64,000 bases of DNA from a virus, in IMG/VR virus record IMGVR_UViG_3300017757_000001; one strand, given 5' to 3'. The position numbers and the translations under genes are program-made. The notes under the pieces were generated by a model. It was not told the DNA's origin and searched no databases. It was given only the letters and a program-made list of their open reading frames with translations. Numbering within the stretch: position 1 is the stretch's first letter; every line of letters begins with the position of its first letter. Below are positions 1,846 through 45,760 of this stretch, piece after piece.

Positions 1846-4742
1846 TAAAGTCCTAATTTTTTTAATTGAGAAATAGTATCAGCAGCAGATGTATGTAGTA
1901 TTCCTATACCCCCCTGTGATATCCATTGATCTATATTTGATTTTCTATCATCAATTAATATGTGATTAGGAGCAGCATAATTTTGTTTATGTGATGCTTG
2001 TGCTAATGTTAATTTTATACCAGGCATATTATTTCTTACCCATAATCTTTTACCTAATCTAGATGTTGAAGATCTTGAAGGAGAAGATAATAACTCTGTA
2101 TCATAATCTTTAATATAATCCCAATATTGTTTTCCATCTTCCATCCAAGGCATTCCTACCCAAAATCCAACTTTACCAGTTCCATCAATTAACTCCCAAA
2201 ATTTTTCTTTACCGAATTTTTTTTCATAATCTCTAGGTGCTATTCCTTTTGAATATTTTTTAAATGATTCATCAAAATCAGTTAATACTCCATCCATATC
2301 AGAAAATATTTTATAATTTTCTGACTCCACTATTGGGTGATCCATTTCAATATCTTTTGCAAGCATATCACTATTAATAGCTTCTTCTAAACCCATAGCT
2401 AATTCTCTAGCATATGCATTTAAACCAAATGGATCTTTTGTTTTTTTCTTTTCCTCTATACTAGATGTAATATCGCCATCTAAAGAATCAGTCCAATTTC
2501 TAAATACCATATTACCTTCTTGATAAGCTTCTCTTTCAATTGCATCTAAATCTTCACTATCATTAGTATTATTAGTATTAATGTTATTTAATCTATCTTC
2601 TAACCATTGAGTATGGTGAACCATTTCATGAGAAAATGATCTTACTATATCTTTTGGATGTCTACCTTCAGTATATAAAGCTATTATTTGACTATTAGGA
2701 TCATAATAAGCAGTTTTTCCAAAAAAATCTTTAGCATTTTCATTATCCCCATCTATAAATTCTATTTTAGGTAAAGGTTCTATATTTCTACCCTTTTCTA
2801 TCATATAATTAGTTAAATCTTGAATCATTTGTTTATAATCAATATAATCAGAATATGTAGCATTTTCATTTAAATATTCTTTATCTAATTGTGGGTGATA
2901 TCCTAAATATACATTTTTAATATCCCCAAATGACTCACCGTCACCTCTTAATTCTGCAGGAACAATATTATCAGGTGTTTCATACCAATATTGTACATCA
3001 TACCCTCCATCACTTTTCCAAGTAACAATTAAACCTCTTTCATATTTTTCTGAATCTGCTTGTAATATTACTGGTTCATCTACTGGTAATACAATATTAT
3101 TTTCTTTTATTAATTTTATTATTTTTTCCTCTAAAGCAATTACAGGTGTTGATGTTTTAAAATCTTTTTTTCTCATAACAGTTTTTGCAACTAAATCAAT
3201 ATCATTAGGCATTACATTTATAGCAAATGGAATGTTAATGTTACTATTAAAATCTTTTACTACAGCATCAAAGTCATTATCAATTTTAGATAAAGATTTA
3301 CCATGTTTTTTATGTAAACGTTTAAACATACCTATGAGTTCAGCTACTGATATAGGTTTATTATTACGTTTATCATTTAATCTATCTAAAAAATGTTTTG
3401 TAAATTCAATATCAATTCCTAATTTAGCAAATAATTTATCAGCATAATCTTCAATACTATCTAATTGAGTTTTAGTTACATTTTCATTTATACTCATCAT
3501 CATATCATATGATTTTGTTTTTAAATCATTTAATTGTCCTACAAAATCAGTTCTTCTTAAAACTTTAAAAGCTAAATTTTCTACACTATACTCTCCTCCT
3601 TTTAAAAGACCTGATGATCTCATATTTCTTAATCTTTCTTTTATTGAATTAACTAAGTCAATTACTTTTTGATATTCACCCCTATTAAATAATATTTCAA
3701 TTTGAGGTAATTGAGTTAAATATCCTTCAGCTTTTGATTTAATATCCTCTTTATCTATAACAATTTTATTTAAAACAGGTTCATTAATCCATTCATCATT
3801 TAATATTGAATACAATCCTGAAGCTGTATGATCATCGTTTTCATCCTCAACATAAACTTCAACTGGGTACCCAAACATATCTATATCATGTGTTTGGTTC
3901 CAAATTGATTTTTTAGCTAAAAAGTAATCTCTTGCAAATTCTTCATTATCTGCTATTTGGGAATAATCTAATACTAAATGTAAATCAACATCTGAAAATT
4001 TAGACCAATTATAATTTGCTAAACTCCCAGTTAATTTAATATCTTTTAATATTGTACCTTCAGGTAATTCTAATGAATCAAAAAAATCTTGAGCAATAAC
4101 TAATAATTTTTCTCTAATTTCAGGTTTTAATTTATTATCCTCCCAAACATCTGCAACTAGTGTGTCTTGTATATTAAATGAGTTTATAACTTCAGAAGGT
4201 ATATCTTCATTTAATTTTTCAGCTGGTTTTAGTATATTATAAACTTCAATTTTTTCATCTATTGTTAATTCAAACGGAAGATATTTAATAAATTCTTCTT
4301 GAGATGTTGTTAATGCTTTTCTAGCATTTGTACCGCTCATATTTGGATCATAAGTAGGAATAACTTTAACTTCAATATTAGGATATTTTTCTTTTAAATT
4401 TCCTGTTCTAGCTGCTACATCCAATAAATCATCATCTCTTCCTTCTCTATAACCAATAACAAAATAAATAGTATCTTGTGGGTTATTTTTTGCTAAACGA
4501 AGAATATCTCCAATAGGTTGTTTAACTGGTTCTATTTTAACCTTATTTGCTAAATAGTTGTGGTATATATCCCATACTAAAGTAGATTCTTCTTGATCCA
4601 TTCCTTCTCTTTCTTTAGCACCTACATAAATAATAAATTCATCAATTTCAGGATAATCATCTAATGCCTTTTTTACTATAGCAAAATGTCCTGCTGTTGG
4701 AGGTTTAAATCCTCCCCCGTATGCTGCTAATACTTTACCCAT
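1845..4742 (-). CDS. Multidomain (polyvalent) protein: HxGH-type nucleotidyltransferase, Pol-beta-like NTase, putative RNase-like domain, unknown domain, HExxH metallopeptidase, HAD 5'-nucleotidase
   Basis: Motifs GGFKPPTAGH and SGTNARK; GSLANYNWSKFSDVDLH; FTKHFLDRLND; HEMVH; DMDGVL...ILIDD. Confidence 0.8.
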   Translation of the reverse strand: MGKVLAAYGGGFKPPTAGHFAIVKKALDDYPEIDEFIIYVGAKEREGMDQEESTLVWDIYHNYLANKVKIEPVKQPIGDILRLAKNNPQDTIYFVIGYREGRDDDLLDVAARTGNLKEKYPNIEVKVIPTYDPNMSGTNARKALTTSQEEFIKYLPFELTIDEKIEVYNILKPAEKLNEDIPSEVINSFNIQDTLVADVWEDNKLKPEIREKLLVIAQDFFDSLELPEGTILKDIKLTGSLANYNWSKFSDVDLHLVLDYSQIADNEEFARDYFLAKKSIWNQTHDIDMFGYPVEVYVEDENDDHTASGLYSILNDEWINEPVLNKIVIDKEDIKSKAEGYLTQLPQIEILFNRGEYQKVIDLVNSIKERLRNMRSSGLLKGGEYSVENLAFKVLRRTDFVGQLNDLKTKSYDMMMSINENVTKTQLDSIEDYADKLFAKLGIDIEFTKHFLDRLNDKRNNKPISVAELIGMFKRLHKKHGKSLSKIDNDFDAVVKDFNSNINIPFAINVMPNDIDLVAKTVMRKKDFKTSTPVIALEEKIIKLIKENNIVLPVDEPVILQADSEKYERGLIVTWKSDGGYDVQYWYETPDNIVPAELRGDGESFGDIKNVYLGYHPQLDKEYLNENATYSDYIDYKQMIQDLTNYMIEKGRNIEPLPKIEFIDGDNENAKDFFGKTAYYDPNSQIIALYTEGRHPKDIVRSFSHEMVHHTQWLEDRLNNINTNNTNDSEDLDAIEREAYQEGNMVFRNWTDSLDGDITSSIEEKKKTKDPFGLNAYARELAMGLEEAINSDMLAKDIEMDHPIVESENYKIFSDMDGVLTDFDESFKKYSKGIAPRDYEKKFGKEKFWELIDGTGKVGFWVGMPWMEDGKQYWDYIKDYDTELLSSPSRSSTSRLGKRLWVRNNMPGIKLTLAQASHKQNYAAPNHILIDDRKSNIDQWISQGGIGILHTSAADTISQLKKLGL

Positions 4743-31805: not shown

Positions 31806-33011
31806 TTATCTTAAAATAGTAAGATGTCCTGATTTTTGGTAAATTTCTGGGGAGTTAAATTTTCTAGCATAAAAACTGTAAACATAAACTCCATCTACTA
31901 CATAGGAGGGACCTCCTTGCATACTACCATCCCAATAAGGATATGAGCCATAATCATCACCATAACCCTCAAAAACTAAACCACCCCATCTATTATAGAT
32001 CTTAAACTCTACATCAACCCAGCAATTTAAATCAAGGATAATTTGCCAAATATCATTAAACCCATCATTATTTGGTGTTAATACATTAGGTATAAAAATA
32101 CTCCAAGGCCAACATTCATCTATTATTAATTCATTACAAGGTAAATTAGTATCACAATCTACTTCAATAATTTGAGTAATAGTATCTGTTAAAAAAACAT
32201 ATTCTAAAACTTCAATCTCTAAAGTATCTGCGATATATTCAACGACAGTGTCTATTTCATATATATTGACATACTCTATGAGTGTATCGGTTATATACAC
32301 GTATTCTTGCATTATAATGGTATCTATTTGCGTTTGAATAATAGTATCTGGTGGAAGTTCTATATATAAAGTATCTGTAATATATTCTACAATTGTATCA
32401 GGTTCACATTCATTATAACAAACTGCTATTCTATTATCATCTATATTAATATCAGGGTATGTCTGTGTCTGATTAAAACTATTACCAACAGTCCATCCGT
32501 TATCTGGAAAATCATCATAACCTGCAGTTTGAGAAAGATTAATCTGCCATATTACTACTTCCCAACAATACCCTTCAATAGGAGTAGCTAAAATACACTC
32601 CCAACTAAATGGTGGATTTATTTCAATAGTTGCAGTTGTACCAGTTTCCCAACCACCCCAATTTGTAGAAACTGCAAAACTCCAACCAGGATGGAAGGTT
32701 GCTGAAGTACAATCTGTATTTTCTCCTAAATCTTGTCCAGTTATTTCATCTACATAATGAATGCCAAAAACAAGGCTGGTTATATTTTCATTATTATTTA
32801 CAGAACTAGATCCATTATCATCACAACTATTACCATCCCACTGTGTGTACTCATTACAGCCGCAGCTTTCAGCATTAATAAATTCAACTACAAATGAGTG
32901 AGTATCATCTGTTGTAGCAGGTGGTGTTTGACTTACAAGTTCTAAGTTACACGTTTGGGAATATGTAGTGTAAGACATAGTGGTTATTAAAACCAAAAAT
33001 AATTTTTTCAT
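31806..33011 (-). CDS. Secreted protein with T9SS type B (gliding motility/CHU_C) C-terminal domain
   Basis: Signal peptide ending YSQ; IFIPNVLTPNNDGFNDIW...IYNRWGGLVF...WDG...GVYVY...GHLTILR. Confidence 0.85.
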   Translation of the reverse strand: MKKLFLVLITTMSYTTYSQTCNLELVSQTPPATTDDTHSFVVEFINAESCGCNEYTQWDGNSCDDNGSSSVNNNENITSLVFGIHYVDEITGQDLGENTDCTSATFHPGWSFAVSTNWGGWETGTTATIEINPPFSWECILATPIEGYCWEVVIWQINLSQTAGYDDFPDNGWTVGNSFNQTQTYPDINIDDNRIAVCYNECEPDTIVEYITDTLYIELPPDTIIQTQIDTIIMQEYVYITDTLIEYVNIYEIDTVVEYIADTLEIEVLEYVFLTDTITQIIEVDCDTNLPCNELIIDECWPWSIFIPNVLTPNNDGFNDIWQIILDLNCWVDVEFKIYNRWGGLVFEGYGDDYGSYPYWDGSMQGGPSYVVDGVYVYSFYARKFNSPEIYQKSGHLTILR

Positions 33012-33063
33012 TAAGGGGAAGTAAGGGGGGAGGGAATAACGTTTTATCCCTTATACATATGGG

Positions 33064-33140
33064 TAGGCAAGAAGAGACTTGAACTCTCATGTAACCAATT
33101 ACTCTTTCTACAAGGTATAAGCTTGAGGAGATACATGCCT
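33064..33140 (-). ncRNA. Atypical tRNA-like RNA, anticodon TAT (Ile?), no D-arm at the canonical position
   Basis: Acceptor AGGCATG/CTTGCCT-A; T-arm GAGAG-TTCAAGT-CTCTT; CAAG-CTTATAC-CTTG anticodon arm; GTAA-TTGG-TTAC hairpin 3' of the anticodon arm. Confidence 0.7.
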
Positions 33141-33146
33141 ATGTAG

Positions 33147-33220
33147 TGAACCAGACAGGATTCGAACCTGTGACCGTTAGCTTAGAAGGCTAATGCTCTA
33201 TCCAACTGAGCTACTGGTCC
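33147..33220 (-). tRNA. tRNA-Arg (TCT)
   Basis: GGACCAGTAGCTCAGTTGGATAGAGC...CTTCTAA...GGTTCGAATCC; CCA not encoded. Confidence 0.95.
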
Positions 33221-33240
33221 ATGTATTTATTTATGAAGGG

Positions 33241-33326
33241 TACTCGGGGTGGGACTCGAACCCACACTCGCTATTCAGCAAATCAGATTTTAAGTCTGAC
33301 GTGTCTACCAATTCCACCACCCGAGC
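33241..33326 (-). tRNA. tRNA-Leu (TAA)
   Basis: GCTCGGGTGGTGGAATTGGTAGACAC...CTTAAAA, long variable arm, GGTTCGAGTCC; CCA not encoded. Confidence 0.95.
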
Positions 33327-33336
33327 ATTCGAGGAT

Positions 33337-45054: not shown

Positions 45055-45110
45055 AACTGTTTTTGTTTATAATATACAACCTATATTTTACTTATCCTAA
45101 TTATATTATT

Positions 45111-45340
45111 ACCTCCAACCACCGAGGTTTTGACGACATGACCTCTTTTTACCGTTTGCTAGAGTGCCTTATTAGGCAGCCATCGCTAATTCAACTTGTT
45201 CGCCAGTTGTTACGTTGACCTTCCTTTTACCCTTATCACCCTGTCAAATCCGATCACCCCCATGCTTTAAATATTTTTTAGTGGAGGTGGAGGGAATCGA
45301 ACCCTCGTCCAAAAGTGTAGCTAATAAAAGTACTAGCGGT
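45111..45340 (-). ncRNA. ssrA: Circularly permuted (two-piece) tmRNA, tag (A)GEQVELAMAA
   Basis: Acceptor piece GGACGAGGGTTCGATTCCCTCCACCTCCA (to 45282) lies upstream of coding piece GGGGGTGATCGGATTTGAC (from 45261); G3:U70 pair; tag ORF 45172-45204; outer ends approximate. Confidence 0.9.
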
Positions 45341-45352
45341 CATTTATAATTA

Positions 45353-45760
45353 TTAATATTTTTCTGCTTCTAATACCTCTTCATCAGATGGCTCATAATC
45401 ATCCATATCACCAAATTCATTTCTATAGAACTCATCTTCTTCAGCTTGTTTAGCAGCTATTTCTTCATCTTTAGCTAAATCATCTTTCCAAGCAATTGGA
45501 GCTAGTAATCCACCATTTTCAATTACAGACCATATTCTTTCTTTCCATAAATTCATATGAACACCTTCTACAGTACATTCAAAACCTAATTTTTCAGTAA
45601 GTTTAGCTACTTTATCTAAAAATGCTGCTGTTAGCATATCAAATTCACCTTTTATAGGGAAGTTTTTACCATACTCATCTGTTCCATTTGTATTATTTTC
45701 ATACATTTCTTTAATATCTAACCAATCTGAGGTTAATATTGATTTTTTTGCTTTCGCCAT
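45353..45760 (-). CDS. Hypothetical protein with acidic tail
   Basis: AAAGTT-ATG leader. Confidence 0.55.
   Translation of the reverse strand: MAKAKKSILTSDWLDIKEMYENNTNGTDEYGKNFPIKGEFDMLTAAFLDKVAKLTEKLGFECTVEGVHMNLWKERIWSVIENGGLLAPIAWKDDLAKDEEIAAKQAEEDEFYRNEFGDMDDYEPSDEEVLEAEKY

What the first reader, a model, noticed from the sequence alone, without database searches (positions are those of the whole stretch)
33064..33140. tRNA-like RNA with rearranged arms and a UAU anticodon
Seen (5'-3'): AGGCATG TA TCTCCT CAAG-CTTATAC-CTTG TAGAAAGA GTAA-TTGG-TTAC AT GAGAG-TTCAAGT-CTCTT CTTGCCT A. The acceptor stem, U8A9, T-arm and anticodon loop (U33, UAU, A37) are canonical. There is no D-arm before the anticodon arm, but a hairpin with a D-loop-like UUGG sits after it, and TCTCCT could extend the stem by pairing with AGAAAGA. 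It lies 6 nt downstream of tRNA-Arg. With Leu-UAA and Arg-UCU it would complete a set for the AT-rich codons TTA, AGA and ATA. Established: bacteria normally read AUA with lysidine-modified CAU, and UAU tRNAs are rare. Inference: a topologically rewired functional tRNA-Ile, or a decoy against anticodon nucleases. Standard tRNA finders may miss it.
Basis: partly seen in the sequence, partly recalled or inferred. Interest (0 to 1): 0.85.

Follow-up and report, generated by a model that had tools for sequence, protein, structure and literature searches.

The report
Phage isoleucine tRNA with permuted core
This 77-base phage gene is very likely an isoleucine tRNA whose standard parts are joined in a different order, a layout shared by well over a hundred phage contigs, missed by tRNA finders, and not described in any paper I could find.

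Summary
The flagged sequence is real: 77 nt on the minus strand (33140->33064), 6 nt after tRNA-Arg(UCU). ARAGORN and Rfam both miss it.

It belongs to a large phage family. I collected 87 distinct sequences from more than 180 loci, all inside tRNA gene arrays. These include the cultured crAss-like phage Kehishuvirus 'tikkala', where it sits in an unannotated gap.

Covariation supports the acceptor stem, the T stem, the anticodon stem and a D stem. The D stem forms between nt 10-13 and nt 37-40.

In canonical numbering the segments run 1-9 / 22-45 / AAA linker / 10-21 / 46-73. Reordering them in silico makes ARAGORN of 20 members a normal tRNA; it calls none of the native forms.

Only UAU, GAU and CAU anticodons occur, and the discriminator is always A.

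In this phage ATA, TTA and AGA are the dominant A-ending codons, matching its three tRNA-type genes.

Charging and decoding are inferred, not shown.

Earlier follow-ups in this scan reached the same reading on other phage DNA.

The parts
33064..33140 (-). Whole 77-nt permuted tRNA-Ile(UAU) gene. Element position p corresponds to window coordinate 33141-p.
   Evidence: CM R1 scores it 99.9 bits. It is 97-99% identical in 17 related loci whose neighbouring protein is only 70-88% identical.
33134..33140 (-). Acceptor stem 5' strand (nt 1-7), pairs with nt 70-76.
   Evidence: All 7 pairs show changes on both sides; 95.6% of cells are paired.
33132..33133 (-). U8 A9, invariant.
   Evidence: Invariant in A2.
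33128..33131 (-). nt 10-13 (UCUC), equivalent to canonical D-stem 3' strand 22-25. Pairs with nt 37-40.
   Evidence: Pairs 11-39 and 12-38 covary; 13-37 is invariant C-G; 10.40 is always U.U.
33127..33127 (-). C14, equivalent to canonical position 26.
   Evidence: Invariant. Placement follows from the de-permutation test.
33110..33126 (-). Anticodon arm (nt 15-31): 4 Watson-Crick pairs plus U15.U31 (canonical 27.43). Loop CUUAUAC. Anticodon UAU at 33117-33119.
   Evidence: Pairs 17-29, 18-28 and 19-27 show compensatory changes in divergent members. Anticodons across the family are UAU, GAU or CAU only.
33105..33109 (-). A32 G33 (equivalent to canonical 44, 45) followed by the A34-A36 linker that joins 45 to 10.
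   Evidence: GAAAG is invariant, including in the members found by BLAST and by the first pattern, which did not fix these letters.
33101..33104 (-). nt 37-40 (GAGU), equivalent to canonical D-stem 5' strand 10-13 (G10).
   Evidence: Covariation with nt 10-13.
33092..33100 (-). Open D loop, nt 41-49: A14, R15, Y16, Y17, G18, G19, U20, N20a, A21.
   Evidence: A41, G45, G46, U47 and A49 are invariant or nearly so. Positions 43 and 48 vary freely. Position 42 covaries with 52 as A-U 69 / G-C 11.
33089..33091 (-). nt 50-52 (CAU), equivalent to canonical 46-48. U52 is the Levitt partner of A42.
   Evidence: 42-52 covariation.
33072..33088 (-). T arm, nt 53-69, loop UUCAAGU. G53.U69 wobble in this copy.
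   Evidence: 4 of 5 pairs show compensatory changes; 98.6% of cells are paired.
33064..33071 (-). Acceptor stem 3' strand (nt 70-76) and discriminator A77. No CCA is encoded; CCC follows.
   Evidence: A77 is invariant in 87 sequences. Trailers were tabulated.
33147..33220 (-). Canonical tRNA-Arg(UCU), 6 nt upstream of the element.
   Evidence: RF00005 73.8 bits; also called by ARAGORN.
33238..33327 (-). Canonical tRNA-Leu(UAA), first gene of the three-gene array.
   Evidence: RF00005 61.3 bits; also called by ARAGORN.

Best explanation
The element is a gene for an isoleucine tRNA (anticodon UAU, codon AUA) with a permuted core.

It keeps the following canonical parts:
- A 7-bp acceptor stem, discriminator A73 and U8.
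- A 4-layer D stem.
- A D loop with A14, R15, G18G19 and A21.
- Position 26.
- A 5-layer anticodon stem and a 7-nt anticodon loop.
- A 5-nt variable region and the T arm.

The segment holding the D-stem 5' strand and the D loop (canonical 10-21) lies after the anticodon arm instead of before it. The order is 1-9 / 22-45 / AAA / 10-21 / 46-73.

The result is one long hairpin (D stem stacked on anticodon stem) and an open D-loop strand. I infer that this strand still reaches the T loop to form the elbow.

I also infer the following steps:
- It is co-transcribed with tRNA-Leu(UAA) and tRNA-Arg(UCU).
- It is cut out like a tRNA and given CCA.
- It is charged by the host IleRS through its NAU anticodon and A73.
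- It supplies AUA decoding for an AT-rich phage.

The architecture and its selection are shown by comparative data. Processing, charging and decoding are inferred.
For: 1. Conservation exceeds that of neighbouring coding sequence. The element is 97-99% identical where the adjacent protein is 70-88% identical.

2. The family is large. Members always lie in tRNA arrays on the same strand as the tRNAs.

3. Covariation on 87 distinct sequences gives a score of 0.663, against 0.179 for shuffles and at most 0.126 for slid registers. There are 442 doubly changed cells against 108 expected. RNAalifold independently predicts the same four helices.

4. The 42-52 pair switches between A-U (69) and G-C (11), as the Levitt 15:48 pair does.

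5. De-permutation test. Moving nt 37-49 between nt 9 and 10 and dropping A34-A36 makes ARAGORN, at default settings, of 20 members a 74-nt cloverleaf tRNA. Nineteen are called Ile and one has CAU. None of the 20 native forms is called.

6. Anticodon exclusivity. Among 2.9 million viral contigs there are no family members with a middle base other than A or a third base other than U. The anticodons found are UAU, GAU and CAU. A73 is invariant.

7. Codon usage in the window: ATA is 47.9% of Ile codons, TTA 75.3% of Leu codons and AGA 78.8% of Arg codons. This matches the three tRNA-type genes.

8. A relative whose genome is 100% complete (G001, 164 kb) has only Leu(UAA), Arg(UCU) and this element. 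A sister lineage (G002) has a canonical tRNA-Ile(UAU) and no permuted copy.

9. Phage 'tikkala' has a canonical Ile(UAU) plus a permuted Ile(GAU) and no canonical GAU. One contig, L160, carries permuted GAU and permuted CAU copies.

10. Contigs from RNA libraries of three studies cover the family-specific core at word depths up to about 4000. The flanking coding sequence has depth 0.
Against: - No experiment or read-level data show mature ends, CCA addition, aminoacylation or ribosome use. The RNA-library evidence comes from assembled contigs, which cannot show ends and could include DNA.
- The proposed fold is on average about 4 kcal/mol above the single-sequence MFE. For this copy it is -8.8 against -12.6 kcal/mol, and the MFE is no better than shuffles.
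- In 7 of 18 arrays that also hold a canonical tRNA-Ile, the canonical gene has the same anticodon as the permuted one. Simple gap-filling therefore does not explain every case.
- With the segments put back in canonical order, the body of the sequence is not clearly closest to canonical tRNA-Ile genes.
- Some invariance, and the fixed 77-nt length, were imposed by my search patterns. cr130_1 has one extra D-loop U.
- The tertiary contacts (8-14, 18-55, 19-56, the base triples) rest on invariant letters and on my knowledge of tRNA structure. They were not modelled in 3D.
Confidence: 0.6

Rival explanations
1. The architecture is the same permuted tRNA, but the RNA is not used for decoding. It could act as a decoy or competitor for a host tRNA-directed nuclease or modification enzyme. 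It could also be an Ile-charged donor for a phage aminoacyl-tRNA-dependent transferase.
For: It co-occurs with a canonical tRNA-Ile of the same anticodon in 7 arrays. The restriction to NAU anticodons would also be needed merely for IleRS recognition or for mimicry. Phage enzymes that use aminoacyl-tRNA outside translation exist (title and abstract of PMC13219725).
Against: The anticodon switches among UAU, GAU and CAU, and the split follows the phage groups: all 52 UAU variants came from the marine pattern hits, while the GAU and CAU variants came from the crAss-like, huge-phage and MAG hits. A decoy would be expected to copy one target. When a canonical Ile gene is present it more often carries the other anticodon (11 against 7 arrays). 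The complete genome G001 has no other Ile tRNA, while ATA makes up about half of Ile codons in this phage. No conserved partner protein lies nearby across clades.
Confidence: 0.22
2. The primary transcript is rearranged after transcription (cut and re-ligated) into a canonical tRNA-Ile, by analogy with the permuted tRNA genes of a red alga.
For: The de-permuted order is a perfect cloverleaf. Permuted tRNA genes that are restored at the RNA level are known (cited in PMC10085705).
Against: Swapping two internal segments needs two cuts and two ligations. Circularisation alone cannot produce it. No bulge-helix-bulge or intron-like motif is visible. The invariant AAA linker and the covarying long hairpin point to selection on the encoded order.
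Confidence: 0.04
3. One reading: a D-armless tRNA with a separate D-loop-like hairpin (nt 39-50) in the variable-arm position.
For: In this single sequence GUAA/UUAC can pair. Pairs 39-50 and 40-49 are conserved.
Against: Pair 41-48 is broken in 22 of 48 variants and no pair of this hairpin has a compensatory change. G39 and U40 are instead accounted for by the covarying 11-39 and 12-38 helix. Position 42 covaries with 52, not with 47. RNAalifold does not predict the hairpin.
Confidence: 0.03
4. It is a decaying pseudo-tRNA or a chance tRNA-like sequence.
For: tRNA finders reject it, and the single-sequence fold has z = +0.55.
Against: There are 87 distinct variants with compensatory changes in four helices. 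The element is better conserved than the flanking genes. Length is constant and the CM scores 75-109 bits.
Confidence: 0.01

Closest known systems
Canonical bacterial or phage elongator tRNA-Ile (Rfam RF00005), e.g. L007:6824-6901 (UAU) and L154:836-910 (UAU)
   Same: 7/5 acceptor/T branch, A73, U8, G10, A14, R15:Y48, G18G19, A21, the same anticodon loop CUUAUAC (U33, A37), the same T loop UUCAAGU, a 5-nt variable region, and a location in phage tRNA arrays.
   Different: Segment 10-21 follows the anticodon arm rather than preceding it, and a 3-nt AAA linker is added. There is no D hairpin, so the secondary structure is a three-way rather than a four-way junction. It falls below the RF00005 cut-off and is invisible to ARAGORN.
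D-arm-lacking mitochondrial tRNAs (metazoan tRNA-Ser(AGY), nematode mt-tRNAs; review PMC7609411)
   Same: There is no D hairpin between the acceptor and anticodon arms. On paper the shape is acceptor / long anticodon arm / T arm.
   Different: Those tRNAs have lost the D stem and D loop. This one keeps both, including G18G19 and the Levitt pair, and only relocates them. It is full length and comes from phages of bacteria.
Circularly permuted tRNA genes of Cyanidioschyzon merolae (Soma 2014, as cited in PMC10085705)
   Same: The gene order of tRNA segments differs from the canonical order.
   Different: There the permutation is circular across the whole molecule and is undone by RNA processing, so the mature tRNA is canonical. 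Here two internal segments are swapped, a non-circular permutation of the molecule, and the evidence points to the encoded order being the functional one.
Natural non-circular permutations in self-cleaving ribozymes (Eckert et al., NAR 2023, PMC10085705)
   Same: Structural elements are re-ordered along the chain while 3D neighbours are kept.
   Different: It is a different RNA class. That paper states that no such permutation was previously known in natural RNAs, and it does not report one for tRNA.
allo-tRNAs and (8/4), (9/3) tRNAs of bacteria and phages (Mukai et al., PMC5389517)
   Same: Non-canonical tRNAs found in metagenomes and in phage tRNA clusters. UAU anticodons are common among allo-tRNAs.
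   Different: Those keep the cloverleaf order and change stem lengths. Their anticodons are very diverse (35 codons). This family is 7/5 and restricted to NAU.
Two-piece (permuted) tmRNA, present in this same window at 45081-45372
   Same: A translation RNA with a tRNA-like acceptor/T domain whose gene segments are in non-standard order.
   Different: tmRNA permutation is circular and gives two RNA pieces. It has no anticodon arm. It is a separate gene (RF04321, 71.8 bits).

Membership tests
tRNA (cloverleaf, Rfam RF00005) | 7-bp acceptor stem plus unpaired discriminator | tested here: met
   Pairs 1-76 to 7-70 all covary and 95.6% of cells are paired. A77 is invariant.
tRNA (cloverleaf, Rfam RF00005) | 5-bp T stem with a 7-nt T loop (U54 U55 C56 R57 A58) | tested here: met
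   Pairs 53-69 to 57-65 are 98.6% paired and 4 of them covary. The loop UUCAA is invariant or nearly so.
tRNA (cloverleaf, Rfam RF00005) | Anticodon stem with a 7-nt loop carrying U33 and purine 37 | tested here: met
   Four covarying or invariant pairs plus a conserved 27.43-type mismatch. The loop is C-U-NAU-A-N. Anticodon stems of 4 bp that are open at the top are common in bacterial tRNAs (PMC13092985).
tRNA (cloverleaf, Rfam RF00005) | D hairpin located between position 9 and position 26 | tested here: not met
   No hairpin is present there. The D stem forms between nt 10-13 and nt 37-40, around the anticodon arm, and the D loop follows it.
tRNA (cloverleaf, Rfam RF00005) | Score at or above the family's gathering threshold (29 bits), or detection by ARAGORN | tested here: not met
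   No hit for the window copy at E<=10. Two relatives score 27.3 and 24.5 bits. ARAGORN finds nothing in any mode. After in-silico de-permutation ARAGORN of 20.
tRNA (cloverleaf, Rfam RF00005) | Conserved core nucleotides for the L shape (U8, A14, R15:Y48, G18G19, A21) | tested here: met
   All are present at the mapped positions and are invariant, apart from the covarying 42-52 pair. That they form the canonical contacts is inferred.
tRNA-Ile identity | Ile-type anticodon (GAU, UAU, or CAU to be modified) and discriminator A73 | tested here: met
   52 UAU, 28 GAU and 4 CAU distinct variants. No other anticodon was found in viral contigs. A77 is invariant.
tRNA-Ile identity | Aminoacylation by IleRS | not testable with these tools
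   No charging data are available. The body identity pairs known from E. coli (4-69, 12-23, 29-41; from my own knowledge) are not conserved here.
D-arm-lacking (mitochondrial-type) tRNA | Loss of the D stem and D loop, replaced by a short connector | tested here: not met
   The D stem (11-39, 12-38, 13-37) and a D loop with GG are retained.
Anticodon-nuclease decoy | Cleaved by, or binds, a host tRNA nuclease in place of the host tRNA | not testable with these tools
   No nuclease partner was identified. No conserved neighbouring protein exists across clades.

The most novel reading that the evidence does not exclude
This is a natural, fully translation-competent tRNA whose D/anticodon domain (canonical 10-45) is circularly permuted inside the molecule, which amounts to a non-circular permutation of the whole tRNA. 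It is kept in many phages, mainly of Bacteroidota, because the rewired backbone lets it escape a host tRNA-directed nuclease or modification enzyme, or a phage-encoded one. It would still be accepted by RNase P, the CCA-adding enzyme, IleRS, EF-Tu and the ribosome.
Probability: 0.2. Interest if true: 0.95.

Novelty: new variant of a known kind. Interest (0 to 1): 0.85.

Why it matters
All known decoding tRNAs with a full set of arms share one chain topology. The known exceptions either lose arms (mitochondria), change stem lengths (Sec, allo-tRNA), or are permuted only at the gene level.

A widespread, selected tRNA that keeps every core element but threads the chain differently would have several consequences:
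- The L-shaped core would be shown to be reachable by another connectivity.
- It would be a first tRNA example of a non-circular RNA permutation.
- It would be a natural test of what RNase P, the CCA enzyme, IleRS, EF-Tu, modification enzymes and the ribosome actually read: shape rather than backbone path.

It also has practical consequences. tRNA finders and Rfam miss these genes, so phage tRNA complements are under-counted, including those of cultured crAss-like phages. The scaffold could also be useful for orthogonal tRNA design.

One member lies in a cultured phage-host pair, so the claim can be tested directly.

Tried and rejected
1. ARAGORN with lowered thresholds, intron mode and mitochondrial mode found nothing at the site.

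2. The Rfam 'evalue' scan of the region gave only chance-level hits over the site, such as a fungal snoRNA at E = 8.5.

3. An exact 25-nt T-arm/acceptor pattern found nothing in viral contigs. This copy has a private U69.

4. Megablast of 12 kb around the site against GenBank phages found no match. No whole genome is held for the window.

5. I looked for paralogues with the same architecture and other loops in about 0.86 Mb of loci. None was found: the family scores 96-109 bits, and the best other match in that search, an ordinary tRNA, scores 25 bits.

6. I asked which canonical tRNA type is closest in sequence to the de-permuted forms. The result was mixed (Ala, Gly, Arg, Pro, Ile) and uninformative. 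My anticodon mask in that script was also off by one.

7. I searched for a conserved partner protein within +/-4 kb across clades. The only recurrent clusters were spurious ORFs over tRNA genes, the T9SS-type cargo protein of this lineage, and HNH endonucleases.

8. The promoter/terminator consensus scan and a fold of the 3' flank gave nothing above shuffles. Bacteroidota promoters are not covered by that scan.

9. Thermodynamic support was not obtained. The model is about 4 kcal/mol above the MFE on average, and only 2 of 87 MFE structures resemble it.

10. RNA-library contigs cannot show ends or strand. Parts of the stretch without cover are not evidence.

11. Five literature searches and four papers checked gave no description of this architecture.

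Full report
OBSERVATION

The quoted letters are present on the minus strand at 33140->33064. The element starts 6 nt after the discriminator of a canonical tRNA-Arg(UCU) (33147-33220). That gene follows a canonical tRNA-Leu(UAA).

The window is AT-rich (about 28% G+C). Nearly all its genes are on the minus strand, and it has baseplate and tail genes, so it is a tailed phage. No whole genome is held for it.

Standard finders miss the element:
- ARAGORN finds nothing at the site in default, relaxed, intron or mitochondrial modes.
- Rfam has no hit at gathering score or at E<=10.
- The same gene in two relatives scores 27.3 and 24.5 bits against RF00005, under the cut-off of 29.
- Folded alone, the sequence is no more stable than shuffles (z = +0.55).

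On this one sequence the case is weak. It is decided by relatives.

IT IS A CONSERVED GENE

Loci fetched through the downstream 401-aa protein hold the element at 97-99% identity in 17 cases. The protein itself is only 70-88% identical in those loci. L013 holds a diverged copy with compensatory changes.

Further members came from four searches:
- A second pattern that left the anticodon arm free hit 10 MAG contigs among the genomes of 185,579 species. All lie in dense, phage-like tRNA arrays.
- The same pattern, restricted to a wobble base other than U, hit 41 more viral contigs.
- BLAST against GenBank phages found three unannotated members. They are in Kehishuvirus 'tikkala' (a crAss-like phage of Bacteroides cellulosilyticus, in the gap between tRNA-Trp and tRNA-Met), in crAss phage cr130_1, and in a 462-kb uncultured phage.

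In total I aligned 87 distinct sequences (A2). Members always lie inside or at the end of tRNA arrays, on the same strand as the tRNAs.

A covariance model scores members at 75-109 bits, while no ordinary tRNA exceeds 35 bits. Most phages carry one copy. One contig carries two.

The largest clade sits in roughly 60-kb podovirus-like contigs. Their terminase is closest to those of Flavobacterium and Cellulophaga phages. Together with the crAss-like members and the Bacteroidota-type features of this window, this suggests that most hosts are Bacteroidota. That is an inference, not a demonstration.

STRUCTURE

Mutual information and pair counts give four helices:
- Acceptor stem, 1-7 with 70-76: all 7 pairs show double changes.
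- T stem, 53-57 with 65-69: 4 of 5 pairs show double changes.
- Anticodon stem, 16-19 with 27-30: three pairs show double changes once divergent members are included.
- A helix between nt 11-13 and nt 37-39. Pair 12-38 occurs as C-G 43, U-A 38, G-C 4 and A-U 2. Pair 11-39 occurs as C-G 73, A-U 10 and U-A 4. Pair 13-37 is always C-G.

The whole-structure covariation score is 0.663. Shuffles give 0.179 and registers slid by 1-3 columns give at most 0.126. RNAalifold, run without my structure, predicts the same four helices.

Pair 41-48 is broken in 22 of 48 variants, and no pair of that hairpin has a compensatory change.

One further pair, 42-52, switches between A-U (69) and G-C (11) on several different backgrounds.

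MAPPING TO A tRNA

Canonical numbering and the core contacts used here come from my own knowledge of tRNA structure. The letters then fall into place as follows:
- nt 1-9 are canonical 1-9.
- nt 10-13 are 22-25.
- C14 is 26.
- nt 15-31 are the anticodon arm 27-43, with a conserved U.U at 27.43.
- A32 and G33 are 44 and 45.
- A34-A36 are an extra linker.
- nt 37-40 are 10-13, beginning with G10.
- nt 41-49 are the D loop: A14, R15, Y16, Y17, G18, G19, U20, N20a, A21.
- nt 50-52 are 46-48.
- nt 53-69 are the T arm.
- nt 70-76 are the acceptor 3' strand, and A77 is A73.

On this mapping the covarying 42-52 pair is the Levitt pair 15:48, which is G-C or A-U in ordinary tRNAs. The freely varying positions 43 and 48 are 16 and 20a, which are variable D-loop positions.

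The molecule therefore has the segment order 1-9 / 22-45 / AAA / 10-21 / 46-73. Equivalently, the D/anticodon domain (10-45) is circularly permuted inside the tRNA. Its old ends are closed by AAA and new ends open between 21 and 22.

The three new joints (9->22, 45->10, 21->46) connect residues that I recall as neighbours in the canonical core, through the 9-12-23, 45-10-25, 8-14-21 and 13-22-46 layers. I could not measure these distances here.

The number of stacked layers from the D stem to the anticodon loop (4 + 1 + 5) is unchanged.

DIRECT TEST OF THE MAPPING

In a script I moved nt 37-49 to between nt 9 and 10, dropped A34-A36, and added neutral flanks and a CCA. ARAGORN at default settings then called 20 of 20 diverse members a 74-nt cloverleaf tRNA with the anticodon at position 35. 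Nineteen were called Ile (UAU or GAU). One was called 'Met' (CAU), which in this family more likely marks a lysidine-type Ile tRNA. None of the 20 native sequences was called.

WHAT IT DOES

Nothing in this section is shown experimentally. The inference rests on six lines.

1. Anticodon restriction. Family members with a middle anticodon base other than A number zero in 2.9 million viral contigs. The same is true for a third base other than U. The variants are 52 UAU, 28 GAU and 4 CAU, and the discriminator is always A. tRNAs whose identity does not depend on the anticodon, such as allo-tRNAs, show very diverse anticodons (PMC5389517). The restriction here therefore fits anticodon-dependent recognition, as by IleRS.

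2. Codon usage in the window. ATA is 47.9% of Ile codons (36.8 per 1000), TTA is 75.3% of Leu codons and AGA is 78.8% of Arg codons. These are exactly the codons read by UAU, UAA and UCU.

3. tRNA complements of relatives. A relative with a 100% complete genome (G001) has only three tRNA-type genes: Leu(UAA), Arg(UCU) and this element. A sister lineage (G002) has Leu, Arg, Lys and a canonical Ile(UAU), and no permuted copy.

4. Complementary anticodons.
- 'tikkala' has a canonical Ile(UAU) and a permuted Ile(GAU), but no canonical GAU.
- Contig L160 has permuted GAU and permuted CAU copies.
- Among 18 arrays that also hold a canonical Ile gene, 11 carry only the other anticodon.
- The remaining 7 include the same anticodon, so redundancy exists.

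5. RNA libraries. Assembled contigs from RNA libraries of three studies cover the family-specific core at word depths up to about 4000. The flanking coding sequence has none. This hints at a stable RNA, but contigs cannot show ends and DNA carry-over cannot be excluded.

6. The 27.43 mismatch. A 27.43 mismatch is common in functional bacterial tRNAs (PMC13092985), so it does not argue against function.

Several points weigh against over-reading:
- The model lies about 4 kcal/mol above single-sequence MFEs.
- My patterns imposed part of the invariance and the fixed length. cr130_1 has one extra U in the D loop.
- Loci are partial, so 'no canonical Ile' in a locus does not mean none in the phage.
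- The de-permuted body is not clearly closest to tRNA-Ile.
- No conserved partner protein was found.

RIVALS

- A non-decoding role for the same RNA, as a decoy or an amino-acid donor, remains possible (about 0.2).
- Restoration of the canonical order at the RNA level is unlikely. It would need two cuts and two ligations, and selection acts on the encoded hairpin.
- A pseudogene is contradicted by the data.

COMPARISON AND NOVELTY

The element works like a tRNA-Ile and keeps the tRNA core. It fails two formal membership features of the cloverleaf family: a D hairpin between positions 9 and 26, and the Rfam threshold.

How it differs from related cases:
- D-armless mitochondrial tRNAs have lost the D stem and loop. 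This RNA retains them.
- In the permuted tRNA genes of a red alga the permutation is circular and is undone at the RNA level.

What the papers say:
- A 2023 paper on permuted ribozymes states that non-circular permutations were otherwise unknown in natural RNAs (PMC10085705).
- A review of non-canonical tRNAs lists only Sec, allo, Pyl and mitochondrial types (PMC7609411).
- Five full-text searches found no description of this layout.

After I had derived the model (note), a look-up showed that earlier follow-ups of this scan reached the same reading on other phage DNA. The family has therefore been seen before within the scan, though apparently not in the literature.

I rate it a new variant of a known kind and of high interest. 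Confidence is about 0.9 that the permuted architecture is real and under selection, and about 0.6 that it is a working AUA-decoding tRNA-Ile.

Noticed in passing
window 45081-45372 (-): Permuted (two-piece type) tmRNA gene. Rfam RF04321 scores 71.8 bits. ARAGORN gives the tag peptide as GEQVELAMAA. The phage therefore carries a second translation RNA with a non-standard segment order.
   Followed up: no
window 31806-33011 (-): A 401-aa protein lies directly downstream of the element. It has no PHROG match. Earlier notes of this scan call it a type IX secretion cargo with a type-B C-terminal domain. Its homologues served to fetch related loci, and its N-terminal half is missing in several relatives, where matches cover only residues 204-401.
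   Followed up: partly
L154:596-672 (= OQ198717.1 95577-95653): The cultured crAss-like phage Kehishuvirus 'tikkala' has a 90-nt unannotated gap between tRNA-Trp and tRNA-Met. The gap holds a permuted tRNA-Ile(GAU). The record annotates 25 tRNAs but not this one.
   Followed up: yes
L160:2617-2693 and L160:3550-3626 (-): A 400-kb contig binned as an Erysipelotrichaceae MAG carries two permuted copies about 0.9 kb apart, with anticodons CAU and GAU. The contig may be a huge phage rather than a bacterial chromosome.
   Followed up: partly
L155:582-659: The crAss phage cr130_1 member has one extra U in the D loop (78 nt). It lies between protein genes, and ARAGORN finds no tRNA in the 1250-nt stretch I fetched. 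Not every member is 77 nt or sits in an array.
   Followed up: partly
3' flanks of 84 members: The base after discriminator A is C in nearly all members (CAA 23, CUU 13, CCU 9, CCA 8 and others). A full CCA is encoded in only 8. This suggests selection on C74 or on a processing signal.
   Followed up: no
L163:2629-2795 and 4183-4257: A 363-kb contig (binned as Paceibacterota; also in IMG/VR) has a permuted Ile(GAU) 17 nt upstream of a canonical Ile(GAU), plus a canonical Ile(UAU). This is full redundancy, which simple codon gap-filling does not explain.
   Followed up: partly
tRNA arrays of many loci, e.g. L208:9864-10280: HNH-type endonuclease genes recur inside the tRNA arrays that hold the element (cluster 8).
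   Followed up: no
window 33012-33063 (-): The 52-nt spacer between the element and the next ATG is C-rich and has no Shine-Dalgarno sequence. It contains the AUAUGUAUA motif that other notes of this scan call a late promoter. No terminator-like site was found.
   Followed up: partly
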